Positions 1-5,503 of a DNA stretch of 5,503 nt are shown in pieces. Both the position numbers and the translations under genes were made by a program. The stretch lies in the IMG/VR virus record IMGVR_UViG_3300029478_000049, positions 1 to 5,503 of that record. The stretch is one strand, 5' to 3'. The notes under the pieces are model-generated. The model was not told the DNA's origin. It did not search any database and saw nothing but the letters and a program-made list of their open reading frames with translations. Every line of letters begins with the position of its first letter. The stretch's first letter is position 1. The stretch comes from a virus.

Positions 1-77
1 AGACTGCTAAAATGTAGTTGTAAGGTACGCTTGCCCGCTTTCTCATTCTGTGGTATAATCAACACAAGGCAAGTTGT
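1..77. repeat. Terminal redundancy: 1-77 is identical to 5427-5503. The sequence is a circular genome of 5426 nt written with a 77-nt overlap.
   Basis: Direct comparison of the first and last 77 nt (agactgctaaaatgtagttgtaaggtacgc...caaggcaagttgt) shows an exact match. Confidence 0.95.
31..59 (+). promoter_or_regulatory. Candidate sigma70 promoter with an extended -10 element. TTGCCC at 31-36, a 17-nt spacer, TGg at 51-53 and TATAAT at 54-59.
   Basis: The -10 hexamer matches consensus perfectly and is preceded by the TGn extended -10 motif. The -35 is weak (TTG only). The element lies in the long non-coding region upstream of VP3 and is also present in the repeat copy at 5457-5485. Confidence 0.4.
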
Positions 78-96
78 AATACCACAACACATTAAA

Positions 97-133
97 GGCG
101 TTCAGCGTAATGTTGAGCGTCTTTTTTGTTTTT
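97..133 (+). terminator. Possible intrinsic terminator or attenuator. It has a 7-bp stem, 97-103 GGCGTTC pairing with 115-121 GAGCGTC, with two G.U wobble pairs in RNA. A T6-G-T5 run follows at 122-133.
   Basis: Stem pairing was checked base by base, and the stem is immediately followed by a U-rich tract. The stem is short and wobble-containing, so this is weak. Confidence 0.3.
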
Positions 134-135
134 AT

Positions 136-154
136 ATACCGGCTATGCCGGTAT
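136..154. other. GC-rich hairpin ATACCGGC-tat-GCCGGTAT, with an 8-bp stem and a 3-nt loop, flanked by AT-rich sequence.
   Basis: Perfect inverted repeat of 136-143 with 147-154. Possible ssDNA structural element, for example a priming or packaging signal. Confidence 0.4.
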
Positions 155-177
155 GATTGGATTTGCTGTTCGCCAGC

Positions 178-725: not shown

Positions 726-764
726 TTTATATGCTAATATTCACTTATGTAGAATAATAACCTT

Positions 765-812
765 GTCACCTTGACCAGTTACCTACTTGATAGTAACTGG
801 TCAAGGTGACAC
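765..812. other. Perfect 19-bp inverted repeat. The arms are TGTCACCTTGACCAGTTAC (765-783) and GTAACTGGTCAAGGTGACA (794-812), with a 10-nt loop CTACTTGATA (784-793). Candidate origin or structural signal in the VP3-VP1 intergenic region.
   Basis: Reverse complementarity was verified base by base, and the repeat breaks exactly at 764/813. The loop plus the start of the right arm reads ACTTGATAGTAAC. This resembles the phiX174 gpA origin core CAACTTG^ATATTAATAAC, where the nick falls between G and A. Confidence 0.6.
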
Positions 813-2626: not shown

Positions 2627-3427
2627 ATGGGTTCCTTTCTTGGCTCTGCTGCTGGAGCTTTTGCTGGTGGCATTTCGTCTATCATTGGCGGTGCTCTTTC
2701 TAACTCTGCTGCTCGCCATGCTGCAACGGTAGCTAATCAGCGTAATATTTATAACTATCAACATCGTTATCAATGGGCTATGGAAGATATGCAAAAAGCT
2801 GGTCTTAATCCTATGTTAGCTGCTACGCAAGGCATTGGTGGTTCTGTTAATGGTGCTTCTGCTCTCTCTGCTAATTACAATTTAGGTGAAGGTGTTACTG
2901 CTGGTATGTCGGCTTCTGCTGCTGGTAACTCCGCTAAGGCTGCTAATCGTCAAGCTCAGGTTGCCGAAAAGATGAGTGATGAACAGATTAAAAATTTGGC
3001 TGCTCAAACTATTCTAGCTGGCTCCAGTGCTAAAAAATATGATGCTGAAACCTATGGTATTTCTGTTGCCAATAAATTGGCTACTGATTCTTATAACGAC
3101 AATTTGGCTTTAGTCAAGCAGAATTTAGCCAATGCTCAGAAGCAAGGCGAATATATCGATGCTCAGAAAGCTAGTCAAATGTATATGATGAATGTGGTTA
3201 TGCCCGCTCAAGCTGCTATGATGTATGCTCAAGGTAATGCTGCTAACAGCTCTGCCGCTTATAATGCGCAGCTGTCCAATGTTGCAAAAGCTGATTACGA
3301 TTATAAAACTTCTCGTAATGCCGATTATAGAAATCTTGGTCTTTCAGATGATGGTTTGCCATGGAATACCATTGGCCGTGCTGCTAATCGCTTGTTTTCT
3401 AGCATTTCTAACTATTTTTCTAAATGA
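2627..3427 (+). CDS. VP2-like minor capsid / DNA pilot protein. 266 aa, Gly/Ala/Ser/Asn-rich.
   Basis: AAGGAG at 2613-2618 with 8-nt spacing. The gene lies immediately downstream of VP1, as in gokushoviruses. The composition is low-complexity, with a G/A-rich N-terminus and a coiled-coil-like middle, typical of VP2 / H-protein analogues. The call rests on position and composition rather than a specific motif. Confidence 0.7.
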   Translation: MGSFLGSAAGAFAGGISSIIGGALSNSAARHAATVANQRNIYNYQHRYQWAMEDMQKAGLNPMLAATQGIGGSVNGASALSANYNLGEGVTAGMSASAAGNSAKAANRQAQVAEKMSDEQIKNLAAQTILAGSSAKKYDAETYGISVANKLATDSYNDNLALVKQNLANAQKQGEYIDAQKASQMYMMNVVMPAQAAMMYAQGNAANSSAAYNAQLSNVAKADYDYKTSRNADYRNLGLSDDGLPWNTIGRAANRLFSSISNYFSK

Positions 3428-3438
3428 GGTGATTAATT

Positions 3439-3708
3439 ATGTCAAACAAAACTACTGCTATTTTGACTTTTCTCGTATCCACAGTTATTCCGTTCATCCA
3501 AGAGGTTGTTGATTTTATTGACATGTTTCGTACCGGCAAGTATAACCGTGAAGGCTCTGCAAGTCTTAAAGCTATCTCTTTGGCCATGCAGGATGATTTG
3601 GTTAACATGCAGAAAAGAGGTACTGACGATGTAAACGGGTTTCGCCACGCGGCAGCAGCTGCGCAAGAAGAGAAAAGTTACTCCCGCTTTTTGGGAAAAA
3701 ATAATTAA
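3439..3708 (+). CDS. Hypothetical 89-aa protein with a predicted N-terminal transmembrane helix (TTAILTFLVSTVIPFIQEVV) and a charged C-terminal tail.
   Basis: GAGGTG at 3426-3431 lies 7 nt before the ATG and overlaps the VP2 stop. The reading frame does not overlap its neighbours. Its hydrophobic N-terminus is unlike any structural microvirus protein. See findings for the lysis hypothesis. Confidence 0.6.
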   Translation: MSNKTTAILTFLVSTVIPFIQEVVDFIDMFRTGKYNREGSASLKAISLAMQDDLVNMQKRGTDDVNGFRHAAAAAQEEKSYSRFLGKNN

Positions 3709-3746: not shown

Positions 3747-3860
3747 ATGAAAAGAAGTAGAATTTCTCGCGGCAGTTCTCTTCGGAACTTTCGCAATCAT
3801 GCTGTTCCGCGGCTTAAAAATCTTAAATCTCGTAACATGCGCGGCGGTATCCGCATGTAA
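3747..3860 (+). CDS. Small highly basic 37-aa protein, MKRSRISRGSSLRNFRNHAVPRLKNLKSRNMRGGIRM. It is likely a DNA-binding / packaging protein, analogous to phiX174 J or to Chlamydia-phage ORF8.
   Basis: AAGGAG at 3733-3738 lies 8 nt upstream of the ATG at 3747, and the stop is TAA at 3858-3860. 12 of 37 residues are Arg/Lys. The ORF lies between the structural genes and rep, where gokushoviruses encode their small basic DNA-binding protein. It is below the 60-aa cutoff of the supplied ORF track. Confidence 0.55.
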   Translation: MKRSRISRGSSLRNFRNHAVPRLKNLKSRNMRGGIRM

Positions 3861-3877
3861 CAGAAAGTGTGTGTATT

Positions 3878-4822
3878 ATGACTTGCCTTAACCCGATGTT
3901 TGCTAAACGCTCTGCTGTGCCTAACGCTAACGGCAAGTATGAGCTATCAAATTTTGTTGCTTATCGTCAGTTGTTCGGTAAATCTCTTGAATATGCCAAG
4001 GCTGAATTAGCTAATAATTATGCTGTTGTCGTTCCGTGCGGTCAATGCTTAGGCTGCCGTTTGGATAAAGCCAATGACTGGGCCATTCGGTGCGTTCATG
4101 AGGCAAAACTGCATTTGCATAATTGTTTTATAACGCTAACCTATAACGATGATTGCCTTCCAGCTGACTGTTCGTTGCATCGTGATCATTTGCAGCTTTT
4201 TTTCAAGCGACTTCGTCGCTACCTTGATTATCATGATAATTCTAAGATACGTTTTCTGTGTTGCGGTGAGTATGGCGATCTTAATCGCAGGCCGCATTAT
4301 CATATTCTTTGCTTTGGTTGGTTTCCTGCTGATGTCCGGAAAGTTTCGGCGTTGACAGCTGGTTACAATCTCTTTCGTTCTCCCACTCTGGAGCGGCTTT
4401 GGCCGTATGGTTTTAATACTGTAGGTGCTATTACCTTTGAATCTGCCCGCTATGTCGCAAAATATAGTCTTAAAAAGCAGACCGGTAAAAATGCCTGCAT
4501 GTATGACGCTCTAGGTATATCTCCGGAGTTTGTCGGCAGCTCTCTTAAGCCAGGTATAGGAGCTGATTATTTTGGCCGTTATTCTGAGGATATTTTTAAA
4601 CTAGGCTTTGTTACAATTAATGGAGCTAAGTATAAAATACCTCGCTATTATCAAACTTTATTTGAGCGCAGCAATCCCGTTTGGTATAGTATATACAAGC
4701 AGCAAAGGGCCGAAAATGCTAAGGCTGCTGTTATTGATTGTAAAAGGCTGGAAGCCAAGGAGAAGATTTTAAAGCACCGGCAGGAACAATTTGAGCGTGA
4801 TTTTGATAATTTAGGTTTGTAA
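3878..4822 (+). CDS. Replication initiation protein VP4, a gpA-like rolling-circle endonuclease. It is 314 aa from the ATG at 3878, or 317 aa from an alternative in-frame GTG at 3869.
   Basis: The translation shows rolling-circle Rep motifs: CFITLTY (motif I), PHYHILCFG (the HxH metal-binding motif II) and ARYVAKYSLKK (the catalytic YxxKY motif III). The N-terminus MTCLNPM is typical of microvirus Rep proteins. No strong SD is present, so initiation may be coupled to the upstream small ORF, which ends at 3860. Confidence 0.9.
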   Translation: MTCLNPMFAKRSAVPNANGKYELSNFVAYRQLFGKSLEYAKAELANNYAVVVPCGQCLGCRLDKANDWAIRCVHEAKLHLHNCFITLTYNDDCLPADCSLHRDHLQLFFKRLRRYLDYHDNSKIRFLCCGEYGDLNRRPHYHILCFGWFPADVRKVSALTAGYNLFRSPTLERLWPYGFNTVGAITFESARYVAKYSLKKQTGKNACMYDALGISPEFVGSSLKPGIGADYFGRYSEDIFKLGFVTINGAKYKIPRYYQTLFERSNPVWYSIYKQQRAENAKAAVIDCKRLEAKEKILKHRQEQFERDFDNLGL

Positions 4823-4877
4823 AAGTTGTAAAAAGTTGCAAAAAGTTGTTGACAGTTGCTATTTCACATGATATAAT
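4821..4877 (+). promoter_or_regulatory. Strong sigma70 promoter: TTGACA (4849-4854), a 17-nt spacer, then TG-a-TATAAT (TG at 4869-4870, hexamer at 4872-4877). It is preceded by three 10-bp tandem A-tract repeats, AAAAGTTGYW, at 4821/4831/4841, giving an UP-element-like phased bend.
   Basis: Both hexamers match consensus exactly, the spacer length is optimal and an extended -10 TG is present. The A4-5 tracts repeat at exactly 10-bp periodicity, spanning about -30 to -60. The predicted transcription start is near 4884. The downstream gene has GAGGT at 4891-4895 and ATG at 4903. Confidence 0.75.
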
Positions 4878-4902
4878 ATATACAGAAAGTGAGGTAAGCA
4901 AT

Positions 4903-5163
4903 ATGTTAAAAGATTACTATTTTTCTTCTTTCATTGGTACTAAATGCACTCTTAAGCCTTCTACTATTAAAGCTGTTGAGGAAATTCTTTCTCGCCAAGC
5001 ATGTTTTCCTACCTATGGACGTTATCGCTCTTATTGCAAACGTGTTCAATCATTTGGCAAATGTTTCCTTTGGTGTGGTTTTTACTTTGAAGTTGCTGAA
5101 GGGTGCAGAAATAAGCTTTTGTGTATTTTAAAAGCTGATTCTCTAGATAATGAGGTGAATTAA
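4903..5163 (+). CDS. Hypothetical Cys-rich 86-aa protein with 7 Cys.
   Basis: ATG at 4903 with GAGGT 8 nt upstream, directly downstream of the consensus promoter. The 105-aa version in the ORF track starts at a TTG inside the promoter, so I place the start at 4903. There is no recognisable family. Either this ORF or the next may be the VP5 / protein-C analogue. Confidence 0.55.
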   Translation: MLKDYYFSSFIGTKCTLKPSTIKAVEEILSRQACFPTYGRYRSYCKRVQSFGKCFLWCGFYFEVAEGCRNKLLCILKADSLDNEVN

Positions 5164-5503
5164 TGAAACTTTATTGTATTTATGACCGCAAGGGTGAGCT
5201 GATGAACCCGCCTTTCGTTCAACAAAATAATGCTATGGCTATCCGTCAATTTCAAATTATGGTTAATCAGGCTTCTACTCCGGAGCGTTCCAATATTATC
5301 CATGATTATCATGAGGACTTCGTTCTGATGTATCTTGGCGAATTTAATGATAAAACGTGTGAATTTTCCCCACAAAATCCCACTTTGCTTTTGTCTACCG
5401 CTACGGAACTATTGACTCCCCCCCCCAGACTGCTAAAATGTAGTTGTAAGGTACGCTTGCCCGCTTTCTCATTCTGTGGTATAATCAACACAAGGCAAGT
5501 TGT
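5163..5503 (+). CDS. Hypothetical small protein, MKLYCIYDRKGELMNPPFVQQNNAMAIRQF.... As written, the frame runs through the C9 tract and across the circular junction to a TGA at window position 154-156, giving 139 aa. With C8 or C10 it would stop at 5434-5436 or 5441-5443, giving about 90 aa.
   Basis: ATG at 5163 overlaps the upstream stop (TAATG), with GAGGTG at 5152-5157. The first ~85 aa look like a genuine small phage protein. The segment after the poly-C is low-complexity and overlaps the promoter and terminator elements. The true C-terminus therefore depends on the C-tract length. Not in the ORF track, because it runs off the window end. Confidence 0.5.
   Translation, partial: MKLYCIYDRKGELMNPPFVQQNNAMAIRQFQIMVNQASTPERSNIIHDYHEDFVLMYLGEFNDKTCEFSPQNPTLLLSTATELLTPPPRLLKCSCKVRLPAFSFCGIINTRQV
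5418..5426. repeat. C9 homopolymer immediately upstream of the circular junction.
   Basis: Nine consecutive C read at 5418-5426. It sits at the contig break point and inside the last ORF. Confidence 0.9.
5427..5503. repeat. Second copy of the terminal redundancy. Together with 1-77 this is a circularisation signature of the assembly.
   Basis: Exact 77/77 identity with positions 1-77. Confidence 0.95.

What the first reader, a model, noticed from the sequence alone, without database searches (positions are those of the whole stretch)
4821..4877. Textbook consensus sigma70 promoter with phased A-tract UP-like repeats directly after rep
TTGACA, a 17-nt spacer and TGaTATAAT is an essentially maximal-strength E. 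coli-type promoter. Three exact 10-bp-periodic A-tract repeats (AAAAGTTGYW) upstream would bend DNA or act as an UP element. Perfect consensus promoters are rare in nature. This implies very strong, probably early or constitutive, transcription of the downstream Cys-rich ORF and the following small ORF. It also hints at a host with a sigma70-type polymerase and SD usage, that is, not Bacteroidetes. Enterobacterales are a possibility.
Basis: seen in the sequence. Interest (0 to 1): 0.55.

Follow-up and report, generated by a model that had tools for sequence, protein, structure and literature searches.

The report
Strong early promoter of a gokushovirus
The sequence is a genuine, evolutionarily conserved, near-maximal bacterial promoter with helically phased A-tract repeats, sitting just after the replication gene of a small circular ssDNA gut phage; the promoter itself is an ordinary strong phage promoter, but it led to a more unusual neighbour, a candidate small RNA that pairs with the start of the replication gene.

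Summary
Observation confirmed. TTGACA(4849)-17 nt-TGaTATAAT(4877) is a 12/12 match. Three exact AAAAGTTG cores lie 10 bp apart, starting in the rep stop codon.

The window is a complete circular gokushovirus genome of 5426 nt.

Across 23 relatives (Rep 64-97% identical) the variation pattern is that of a promoter:
- The -10 hexamer is invariant.
- The -35 hexamer and TG are nearly invariant.
- The spacer is always 17 nt, but its sequence varies freely.
- The base at +1 (4884) is always A.

Upstream repeat units vary from 1 to 4 copies. One relative lost the unit that carries the -35 hexamer, and another lost the whole promoter.

The same grammar recurs in 31 promoters of a large low-GC phage that carries a homologue of the downstream gene: A-tracts at about -42, -53 and -62, then TRTGnTATAAT.

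I conclude it is a strong sigma70/sigmaA-type early promoter with UP-like A-tract units. It is not a replication origin. The host is more likely a low-GC Firmicute than an Enterobacterium.

The promoter is a new member of a known kind, of low to moderate interest. More interesting things were noticed nearby:
- a covarying candidate sRNA antisense to the rep start
- a poly-C tract inside a second promoter
- a hairpin whose loop matches the phiX174 nick site

The parts
4820..4822 (+). rep (VP4) stop codon TAA, overlapped by the first repeat unit
   Evidence: ORF 3869/3878-4822, Pfam REP_ORF2-G2P
4821..4830 (+). repeat unit 1, AAAAGTTGTA (A-tract at about -63..-60)
   Evidence: conserved in relatives
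4831..4840 (+). repeat unit 2, AAAAGTTGCA (A5 tract 4830-4834, about -54..-50)
   Evidence: A-tract position matches the large-phage promoter consensus
4841..4850 (+). repeat unit 3, AAAAGTTGTT (A5 tract 4840-4844, about -44..-40). It resembles a proximal UP subsite, and its last TT starts the -35 hexamer
4849..4854 (+). -35 hexamer TTGACA
   Evidence: TTGACA in 18 of 23 clade genomes
4855..4871 (+). 17-nt spacer. GTTGC (4855-4859) is conserved as the rest of degenerate unit 4; positions 4860-4868 vary freely; TG is at 4869-4870 (extended -10); 4871 is the variable 'n'
   Evidence: per-column diversity: GTTGC 0.04, rest of spacer 0.46, TG 0.05, n 0.50
4872..4877 (+). -10 hexamer TATAAT
   Evidence: invariant in 19 of 19 aligned relatives and in 22 of 23 clade genomes (L006 has the promoter deleted)
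4884..4884 (+). predicted transcription start (A, 7 nt after the -10 hexamer)
   Evidence: invariant A preceded by a variable discriminator; A is 0.74 at the same position in 31 large-phage promoters. Inferred, not mapped
4884..4902 (+). 5' UTR AGAAAGTGAGGTAAGCAAT with Shine-Dalgarno GAGGT
   Evidence: AGAAAGTGAGGT diversity 0.02; the same GAAAG(T/A)GAGGTA leader occurs in the large phage
4903..5163 (+). orfY, 86 aa, first gene of the transcription unit. It belongs to a fast-evolving accessory family with no known domain
5163..5426 (+). ORF5 (Phage_ORF5 / PHROG 'DNA binding protein'), second gene. Its 3' end depends on the length of the C-tract at 5418-5426
94..133 (+). first intrinsic terminator downstream of the unit (hairpin 94-124 plus a T-run)
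   Evidence: stem covaries, with G.U pairs, in relatives

Best explanation
This is the strongest promoter of a circular 5.4-kb gokushovirus (Microviridae). It is recognised by the host's primary-sigma (sigma70/sigmaA) RNA polymerase on the double-stranded replicative form.

**How it works (inferred contacts).** Sigma region 4 reads TTGACA. Region 3 reads the TG at -15/-14. Region 2 reads TATAAT. Transcription starts at A4884.

**Role of the repeats.** The AAAAGTTGYW units place A-tracts on one face of the helix at about -42, -52 and -62. That is where the alpha-subunit C-terminal domains dock, so I read the units as reiterated proximal-type UP subsites that raise polymerase recruitment. The unit is exactly one helical turn long. 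Slippage that adds or removes units (1-4 copies in relatives) therefore keeps the phase and may tune promoter strength.

**What it transcribes.** The promoter drives orfY, a fast-evolving accessory gene also found in the early region of a large low-GC phage. [quoted passage not shown] The transcript can run on to the terminator at 94-133.

**Shown versus inferred.** Shown: the sequence, its conservation footprint, the copy-number variation and the shared grammar with other phage promoters. Inferred: the transcription start, promoter strength, alpha-CTD contact and early timing.

**My probabilities.** Functional promoter about 0.9. Repeats act mainly as UP-like alpha-CTD sites about 0.6.
For: **Sequence**
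- It is the only 12/12 site with TG in the window. Shuffles give 0.09 sites with at most 1 mismatch.

**Conservation footprint, 19 aligned relatives.** Mean pairwise difference per column:

| Element | Difference |
|---|---|
| -10 hexamer | 0.00 |
| TG | 0.05 |
| -35 hexamer | 0.07 |
| Spacer 4860-4868 | 0.46 |
| 'n' before the -10 | 0.50 |
| Discriminator | 0.41 |

- The A at +1 is invariant.
- The spacer is 17 nt in every genome, including those with 64-72% Rep identity.
- It is the best-scoring promoter of the locus in most clade members.

**Natural variants**
- L012 lost exactly one 10-nt unit, the one carrying the -35 hexamer, but keeps TGTTATAAT. TGn can compensate for a missing -35 element (PMC2613000).
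- L003, L007 and L014 have 4 upstream units. L121, L122, L123 and L044 have 2. L045 has 1.

**Independent promoters with the same grammar.** In 31 non-redundant promoters of a large phage that carries an orfY homologue:
- A-tracts at -45..-40 (A frequency 0.61-0.84), at -55..-51 (0.55-0.81) and, more weakly, at -64..-60
- G at -36
- TRTG at -17..-14
- A at -6 and at +1

P1 matches these features, except that the window has C rather than T at -17. One of those promoters even carries AAAAAAGTCG-AAAAAAGTTA-AAAAAAGTTG directly before TTGACA.

**Literature**
- UP subsites are centred at -43 and -53 in B. subtilis (PMC4495994).
- T4 early promoters combine UP, -35, TGn and -10 elements (PMC2613000).
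Against: - No transcript data exist. The start site, the strength and the timing are all inferred.
- A home-made wedge-model curvature calculation ranks the array only in the top 3.6% of genome positions, and 155 of 500 shuffles are as curved. Intrinsic bending is therefore not demonstrated.
- The GTTG part of each unit is conserved, as is GTTGC at -29..-25. RNA polymerase makes no base-specific contact there, and the large-phage promoters show A/T/T instead. An A-tract/alpha-CTD model does not explain this.
- L006 lacks the promoter and most of orfY. The promoter is therefore dispensable, or that genome is defective.
- That the large phage shares the host is itself an inference.
Confidence: 0.8

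Rival explanations
1. The 10-bp AAAGTTG array is an operator for a sequence-specific DNA-binding protein. Candidates are ORF5, Rep or a host response regulator that binds direct repeats one helical turn apart. The array spans -63 to -25, and reaches -16 in the 64-72% relatives. A protein coating one face of the promoter would switch P1 on or off. P1 would then be a regulated promoter, not a constitutive one.
For: - GTTG is conserved in every unit, and GTTGC is conserved inside the spacer.
- In relatives with 64-72% Rep identity, two GTTG units fill the spacer: GTTGYTAWAAGTTGTGG.
- The large-phage promoters share the A-tracts but not the spacer GTTGC.
- ORF5, a gene of this same transcription unit, falls in a PHROG annotated 'DNA binding protein'. 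Autoregulation is therefore conceivable.
Against: - No binding protein has been identified.
- Unit number varies from 1 to 4 with no obvious compensation.
- Units born by slippage are identical at birth, so similarity among units may be history rather than selection.
- AAAAAGT(G/T)N immediately before the -35 hexamer is generic in the unrelated large-phage promoters.
Confidence: 0.2
2. The direct repeats are Rep-binding iterons, and TG/ATATAAT is the nick site of the rolling-circle (viral-strand) origin. This would parallel the bind and nic loci of pMV158-type plasmids, or phiX174 CAACTTG/ATATTAATAAC.
For: - The repeats lie immediately after rep.
- TGATATAATATA loosely resembles the phiX174 sequence TTGATATTAATA.
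- AAGTTG is the reverse complement of the phiX174 CAACTT.
Against: - The supposed nick position is the one variable base, the 'n' of TGn (A, G or T). L002 and L122 lack the TG.
- No direct repeats follow rep in 60 gokushoviruses with about 40% Rep identity. Repeats co-occur only with the promoter.
- L006 has an intact Rep but lacks the array.
- The region has no single-strand DNA structure (z = +0.95).
- A far better origin candidate exists at 764-811. It is a 19-bp hairpin that covaries with Watson-Crick pairs only. Its invariant loop TACTTGAT contains ACTTG/ATA, identical over 8 nt to the annotated phiX174 nick site and unique in the window.
Confidence: 0.03
3. Only the core promoter is functional. 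The upstream repeats are a neutral product of replication slippage in an A-rich stretch and contribute nothing measurable.
For: - Copy number drifts between 1 and 4 among relatives.
- A consensus -35/TGn/-10 core may already saturate polymerase binding.
- The predicted curvature is unremarkable.
Against: - At least one AAAGTTG unit abuts the -35 hexamer in every clade genome that keeps the hexamer. This holds down to 64% Rep identity, where neutral positions such as the spacer are scrambled.
- The same A-tract positions are enriched in 31 independent promoters.
Confidence: 0.15

Closest known systems
UP-element promoters (E. coli rrnB P1; B. subtilis sigmaA promoters with AT-rich blocks centred at -43 and -53)
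   Same: An A-rich element between -40 and -65 lies directly upstream of a -35 hexamer. The unit CAAAAAGTT at -45..-37 resembles the proximal-subsite consensus AAAAAARNR (the consensus is recalled from Estrem et al. 1999, from my own knowledge). The positions agree with PMC4495994 and PMC2613000.
   Different: There is no T-rich distal subsite. Instead the same proximal-like unit is reiterated 3 to 4 times at exactly 10-bp spacing. Each unit carries a conserved GTTG, and the array runs into the core promoter.
Phased A-tract promoters of Gram-positive bacteria and their phages (C. perfringens plc promoter with three phased A-tracts; SP82 Alu156; upstream periodicity in Helmann's 1995 B. subtilis compilation). 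Cited from my own knowledge, not read here.
   Same: Three A4-5 tracts in helical phase lie immediately upstream of the -35 hexamer. A TG-extended -10 is present. The host type appears to be low-GC.
   Different: Those cases have experimental evidence for bending or alpha-CTD binding. Here curvature was not supported by a crude model, and nothing has been measured.
Strong early promoters of lytic phages (T4 early, T5, T7 A1)
   Same: [quoted passage not shown] PMC2613000 says this of T4 early promoters. P1 drives small accessory genes. A large phage carrying an orfY homologue uses dozens of near-identical promoters.
   Different: It sits in a 5.4-kb ssDNA microvirus, where promoters have hardly been described. 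I found no report in the held library.
Repeat-length 'rheostat' promoters (H. pylori sabA T-tract, PMC4081817)
   Same: A repeat adjacent to the -35 hexamer varies in copy number among close relatives and could tune promoter output.
   Different: The unit here is a full helical turn of 10 bp, so slippage changes the number of sites rather than the phase. No within-population variation has been shown.

Membership tests
sigma70/sigmaA -35/-10 promoter | -35 and -10 hexamers close to TTGACA and TATAAT, separated by 17 +/- 1 bp | tested here: met
   12/12 match with a 17-nt spacer
sigma70/sigmaA -35/-10 promoter | Selection on the hexamers and on spacer length, but not on spacer sequence | tested here: met
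   Diversity: -10 hexamer 0.00, -35 hexamer 0.07, spacer 0.46. Spacer length is 17 in all 22 genomes that have the promoter
sigma70/sigmaA -35/-10 promoter | Transcription initiates about 7 nt downstream of the -10 hexamer | not testable with these tools
   An invariant A at 4884 is consistent, but no RNA data are available
Extended -10 / Gram-positive -16 region (TRTGnTATAAT) | TG at -15/-14, with T at -17 and R at -16 in the Gram-positive form | tested here: inconclusive
   TG is present in the window and in 20 of 22 relatives. The window has CATG, so -17 is C. The 64-72% relatives mostly have TGTG, which is the full TRTG (L122 lacks the TG). The TRTG definition is taken from PMC2613000
UP element | A/T-rich DNA at -40 to -60 that matches the subsite consensus | tested here: inconclusive
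   A-tracts lie at -44..-40, -54..-50 and -63..-60. The proximal-like match is 6 of 8 specified positions, offset by 1 nt. There is no match to the distal consensus. The same positions are enriched in 31 related-style promoters
UP element | Stimulation depends on the alpha-CTD | not testable with these tools
   Needs in vitro transcription with alpha-CTD-deleted RNA polymerase
Intrinsically bent phased A-tract DNA | At least 3 A-tracts in 10-11-bp phase, giving above-background curvature | tested here: inconclusive
   The phasing criterion is met. The wedge-model curvature is 23.8 degrees, in the top 3.6% of the genome, but 155 of 500 shuffles are as high. The model parameters were recalled from memory
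Rolling-circle origin with Rep iterons | Repeats accompany Rep across relatives and adjoin an invariant nick sequence or hairpin | tested here: not met
   There are no repeats after rep in 60 distant relatives. The candidate nick base is variable. The region has no structure. L006 lacks the array. An alternative origin hairpin lies at 764-811

The most novel reading that the evidence does not exclude
P1 is one arm of a three-promoter regulatory hub between rep and VP3, in which simple repeats act as evolvable dials.
- The 10-bp array sets P1 strength in whole-turn steps.
- A C9/C10 tract sets the spacer of the next promoter, P3, to 16 or 17 nt. The same tract sets the reading frame of ORF5.
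- The third promoter, P2, makes a ~65-nt RNA whose 5' end pairs with the rep start codon region.
- Transcripts that start at P1 or P3 carry an upstream 'anti-seed' that would mask that RNA.

The balance of the three promoters would then set the Rep level, and so the replication rate, of an ssDNA phage. This would be plasmid-like antisense copy control combined with contingency-locus behaviour. I found no report of either for Microviridae in the held library.
Probability: 0.15. Interest if true: 0.75.

Novelty: new member of a known kind. Interest (0 to 1): 0.35.

Why it matters
- Promoters of gokushoviruses are essentially uncharted, although these are among the most abundant ssDNA phages in guts. 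A conserved, near-maximal promoter immediately after rep gives a first anchor for their transcription map.
- It identifies the rep-VP3 interval as the regulatory centre of this lineage.
- Its grammar (phased A-tracts, TRTG, strong SD) is a host clue. It points to low-GC Firmicutes, where no microvirus has yet been cultured (my own knowledge). The same grammar links the microvirus to a large co-occurring phage through a shared promoter-plus-gene cassette.
- In practical terms it is a compact, natural, very strong promoter with a copy-number-tunable upstream module.
- The more consequential leads are the neighbouring features it exposed: a candidate anti-rep sRNA, a poly-C switch and an origin-like hairpin.

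Tried and rejected
- **Rfam.** An E-value scan of the whole window found nothing meaningful.
- **GenBank phages.** There is no close relative. The best Rep identity is 47% (KT264820), which also has TTGCAA-17-TGTTATAAT after rep, with different direct repeats.
- **E. coli host.** Only 7 of 5426 genomes gave partial hits, at about 65% identity to the capsid gene. Rejected.
- **Host from the genome collection.** I found only a free 5.5-kb contig binned in a Clostridiales MAG and a distant (40% Rep) prophage in Phascolarctobacterium faecium. That prophage has no promoter after rep.
- **Iteron/origin reading.** Rejected.
- **Curvature.** A home-made wedge model was inconclusive.
- **orfY function.**
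  - It has no Pfam or PHROG family.
  - The AlphaFold model has pLDDT 81 but no PDB fold match at E < 1.
  - A Zn-finger reading of the 'Cys-rich' ORF is rejected, because no cysteine is invariant.
- **Identity of the large phage.** No nucleotide match was found in GenBank phages. Its phosphoesterase is closest to uncultured human-faecal phages.
- **Literature.** The held library has no paper on gokushovirus promoters, origins or sRNAs.
Full report
**1. What the window is.** Bases 1-77 repeat exactly at 5427-5503, so the window is a circular genome of 5426 nt. All genes are on the + strand:

| Coordinates | Gene | Annotation |
|---|---|---|
| 282-725 | VP3 | scaffold (Chlamy_scaf) |
| 934-2610 | VP1 | capsid (Phage_F) |
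| 2627-3427 | VP2 | pilot protein |
| 3439-3708 | 89-aa ORF | PHROG of unknown function |
| 3747-3860 | 37-aa ORF | Arg-rich |
| 3878-4822 | Rep/VP4 | REP_ORF2-G2P |
| 4903-5163 | 'orfY', 86 aa | no known family |
| 5163 onward | ORF5 | Phage_ORF5; PHROG 'DNA binding protein' |

It is a gokushovirus with no close GenBank relative; the best Rep identity is 47%. IMG/VR, Logan, ENA and one MAG hold 22 further genomes with 64-97% Rep identity and the same gene order.

**2.
- TTGACA(4849-4854), a 17-nt spacer and TG(4869-4870)-a-TATAAT(4872-4877) form the only 12/12 site in the window.
- Shuffled sequence gives 0.09 sites even when one mismatch is allowed.
- AAAAGTTG occurs exactly three times, at 4821, 4831 and 4841. 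Tandem Repeats Finder reports a period-10 array.
- A fourth, degenerate unit (GACAGTTGCT) carries the -35 hexamer.
- Unit 1 overlaps the rep stop codon.

**3. It evolves like a promoter.** In an alignment of 19 relatives, mean pairwise difference per column was:

| Element | Difference |
|---|---|
| TATAAT | 0.00 |
| TG | 0.05 |
| TTGACA | 0.07 |
| Nine spacer positions 4860-4868 | 0.46 |
| 'n' of TGn | 0.50 |
| Discriminator | 0.41 |

- A4884, 7 nt after the -10 hexamer, is invariant. It opens a conserved leader, AGAAAGTGAGGT (0.02), that contains the Shine-Dalgarno sequence.
- Counting all 23 clade genomes:
  - TATAAT is present in 22.
  - TTGACA is present in 18. The variants are TTGATA, TTGCAA and TTTACT, plus two deletions.
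  - TG is present in 20 of 22.
  - The spacer is 17 nt in all 22.
- It is the top-scoring promoter of most of these genomes. About 60 gokushoviruses with roughly 40% Rep identity have nothing comparable after rep.
- KT264820 (47% Rep identity) has TTGCAA-17-TGTTATAAT at the same place, with a different 19-nt direct repeat.

**4. The repeats.**
- Upstream unit number is 1 in L045. It is 2 in L044, L121, L122 and L123. It is 2-3 in L042. It is 3 in the window and most close relatives. It is 4 in L003, L007 and L014.
- L012 has lost exactly one 10-nt unit, the one bearing the -35 hexamer. It retains TGTTATAAT, a configuration that TGn can support (PMC2613000).
- L006 has lost the whole promoter and most of orfY.
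- In the 64-72% relatives two further GTTG units fill the spacer (GTTGYTAWAAGTTGTGG). The entire promoter therefore looks as if it were built from a 10-bp unit, RAAAGTTGYN.
- With +1 at 4884, the A-tracts lie at -44..-40, -54..-50 and -63..-60.

**5. Independent support for an UP-like role.**
- orfY has homologues (47-60% identity) on 14-90-kb contigs. These contigs hold long same-strand arrays of small genes, including ArdA and phosphoesterases. That is the look of the early region of a large phage; its GC content is 34%.
- Sixteen kilobases of that region contain 9 perfect TTGACA-17-TATAAT sites and 12 with 11/12 matches, all on one strand. One lies directly upstream of the orfY homologue.
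- In 31 non-redundant promoters from these contigs:
  - A is enriched at -45..-40 (0.61-0.84).
  - A is enriched at -55..-51 (0.55-0.81), followed by TT.
  - A is enriched more weakly at -64..-60.
  - G at -36 has frequency 0.61.
  - TRTG occupies -17..-14.
  - A at -6 has frequency 0.81, and A at +1 has 0.74.
- P1 matches these, including the conserved A4878 and A4884. The exception is -17, where the window has C rather than T.
- One of the large-phage promoters has AAAAAAGTCG-AAAAAAGTTA-AAAAAAGTTG abutting TTGACA.
- AT-rich blocks centred at -43 and -53 are the UP subsites of B. subtilis (PMC4495994). TRTG is the Gram-positive form of the extended -10 (PMC2613000).
- I therefore read the units as reiterated, in-phase docking sites for the alpha-CTD.
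- The separate claim of intrinsic bending is not supported by my crude curvature model.

**6. Rivals.**
- **Rep iterons/origin.** I reject this reading for five reasons:
  - The would-be nick base is the variable 'n'.
  - Repeats after rep occur only where the promoter occurs.
  - L006 lacks them.
  - The region has no single-strand structure.
  - A much better origin candidate lies at 764-811. It is a 19-bp perfect hairpin, and four of its pairs covary using Watson-Crick pairs only. Its invariant loop TACTTGAT contains ACTTGATA, which is unique in the window. That 8-mer is identical to the annotated phiX174 nick site AACTTG/ATAT.
- **Operator for a DNA-binding protein.** This remains open at about 0.2. 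GTTG, and GTTGC at -29..-25, are conserved without an RNA-polymerase explanation.
- **Neutral slippage.** I rate this at about 0.15.

**7. Host.**
- Strong SD sequences, sigma70-type promoters, TRTG and low GC characterise the microvirus and its presumed co-hosted large phage.
- One relative (92% Rep identity) is binned with a Clostridiales MAG.
- A distant gokushovirus prophage sits in Phascolarctobacterium.
- The nearest relatives of the large phage's phosphoesterase are human-faecal phages.
- E. coli genomes hold nothing close.
- A gut Firmicute is the best guess, but it is unproven.

**8. What the promoter drives.**
- orfY is a fast-evolving family (MLKDY...F.TYGR.R.Y.KRVQS.GK.F.W...YEV). 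No cysteine is invariant.
- Its predicted fold is confident (pLDDT 81), but it has no PDB match.
- ORF5 follows orfY.
- There is no terminator between rep and P1, so read-through from rep is possible. That may explain how L006 survives without P1.

**9. Things found on the way.**
- **Two more conserved promoters downstream of ORF5.** P3 is TTGAC[ACT]-16/17-TA[AC]AAT at 5412-5439. P2 is TTGCC[CT]-17-TGnTATA[AC]T at 31-59.
- **A candidate sRNA.**
  - P2 is followed, from about position 66, by a ~65-nt unit that ends in a terminator (94-124 plus a T-run).
  - The terminator stem covaries with many G.U pairs. The unit's fold has z = -5.2.
  - Its single-stranded 5' end pairs with the rep translation start (3873-3889; AUG at 3878).
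  - Duplex energies are -25 to -39 kcal/mol in 19 genomes, and 0 of 300 shuffles reach the observed value in any of them. Cognate pairs beat non-cognate pairs across subclades.
  - The rep start is the best target site in the whole genome.
  - On a 15-sequence alignment 94.9% of cells pair, and 6 of 17 pairs show compensatory change. The covariation score is 0.249, against 0.098 for shuffles (0 of 500 as high) and at most 0.097 for slid controls.
- **A poly-C tract.**
  - P3's spacer contains a C-tract of 6-10 bases.
  - C10 gives a 17-nt spacer and a 93-aa ORF5 that ends QTAKM*, much like the DTAKM* end in tract-free L006.
  - C9, the state in this window, gives a 16-nt spacer and a 139-aa read-through.

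**10. Verdict.** The finding is a real, conserved, very strong promoter with UP-like phased repeats. That makes it a new member of a well-known kind, in a virus group where promoters are undescribed. Interest for the promoter itself is low to moderate. The neighbouring sRNA, poly-C tract and origin-like hairpin deserve their own follow-up.

Noticed in passing
window 31-133 (copy of 31-77 at 5457-5503), pairing with 3873-3889: Candidate trans-acting anti-rep sRNA.
- The conserved promoter P2 (TTGCCC-17-TGGTATAAT, 31-59) predicts a start at about 66 and an RNA of about 65 nt. The RNA ends at a covarying terminator (94-124 plus a T-run).
- The 5' end of the RNA (66-82) forms 17 bp, including 2 G.U pairs, with the rep start region (AUG at 3878).
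- Duplex energies are -25 to -39 kcal/mol in 19 genomes, and 0 of 300 shuffles reach the observed value.
- 6 of 17 pairs show compensatory change. The covariation score is 0.249 against 0.098 for shuffles (0 of 500 as high).
- The rep start is the best target in the genome.
- No Rfam family matches, and I found no microvirus sRNA in the held literature.
   Followed up: yes
window 5412-5439 (C-tract 5418-5426); relatives L001-L123: A third conserved promoter, P3 (TTGACT-C9AGACTGC-TAAAAT, with TG), overlaps the 3' end of ORF5.
- Its spacer holds a poly-C tract of 6-10 bases across relatives.
- The near-identical contigs L045 and L047 have C9, whereas L046 has C10.
- C10 gives a 17-nt spacer and a 93-aa ORF5 ending QTAKM*.
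- C9, as in this window, gives a 16-nt spacer and a 139-aa read-through across P3, P2 and the sRNA.
- Contig ends fall exactly at the tract.
- This could be phase variation, transcriptional slippage or a sequencing artefact.
   Followed up: partly
window 764-811 (loop 783-792): A 19-bp perfect hairpin lies in the VP3-VP1 intergenic region.
- It is conserved, with 4 compensatory pairs that use Watson-Crick pairs only.
- Its invariant loop TACTTGAT contains ACTTGATA. That 8-mer occurs once in the window and is identical to the annotated phiX174 viral-strand nick site AACTTG/ATAT.
- It is a candidate gokushovirus plus-strand origin presented in a hairpin loop.
- Alternatively it could be a minus-strand priming hairpin, as discussed for other microviruses in PMC9865509.
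   Followed up: partly
L124, L125, L126 (orfY homologue at L126 8001-8225): orfY homologues (47-60% identity) lie in the early-gene array of a large low-GC (34%) phage.
- Each small gene there has its own consensus promoter: 9 perfect and 12 with 11/12 matches in 16 kb.
- The upstream A-tract grammar and the GAAAGNGAGGTA leader are the same as at P1.
- This suggests either exchange of a promoter-plus-gene cassette between a dsDNA phage and a microvirus, or convergence on one host.
   Followed up: partly
window 14-35 versus 66-90: The sequence just upstream of P2 (GTAGTTGTAAGGTACGCTTGCC) is complementary to the sRNA seed, at -21.5 kcal/mol. It is the second-best target in the genome. Transcripts that start at P1 or P3 would mask the seed. 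The invariant TTGCC of the P2 -35 hexamer is part of this element.
   Followed up: partly
window 135-155: A second hairpin, ATACCGGC-TAT-GCCGGTAT, lies right after the terminator. Relatives show compensatory variants (TTCCGG/CCGGAA; TTTTGGC/GCCAAAA). Its function is unknown.
   Followed up: no
window 4855-4859; also 71-77 and 15-21: GTTGC inside the P1 spacer is conserved without an RNA-polymerase explanation. The motif AAGTTGT recurs in the sRNA seed and just after the P3 -10 hexamer. In L045 and L123 the sRNA 5' region (AAGTTGTGTATAAC) resembles P1 at -19..-7.
   Followed up: no
L006 1540-1645; L012 2026-2075: Two natural deletion variants exist. L006 lacks P1 and most of orfY. L012 lost one 10-nt unit, the one with the -35 hexamer. 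Both carry a stronger P3 (TTGACA-17-TGCTAAAAT) than the window does.
   Followed up: partly
L115 (Phascolarctobacterium faecium DSM 14760, NZ_QLTS01000001.1 87497-100393): A gokushovirus Rep homologue (40% identity) and an adjacent ORF5-like gene are integrated in a 797-kb contig of an isolate genome of the Negativicutes. There is no promoter between rep and ORF5 there.
   Followed up: no
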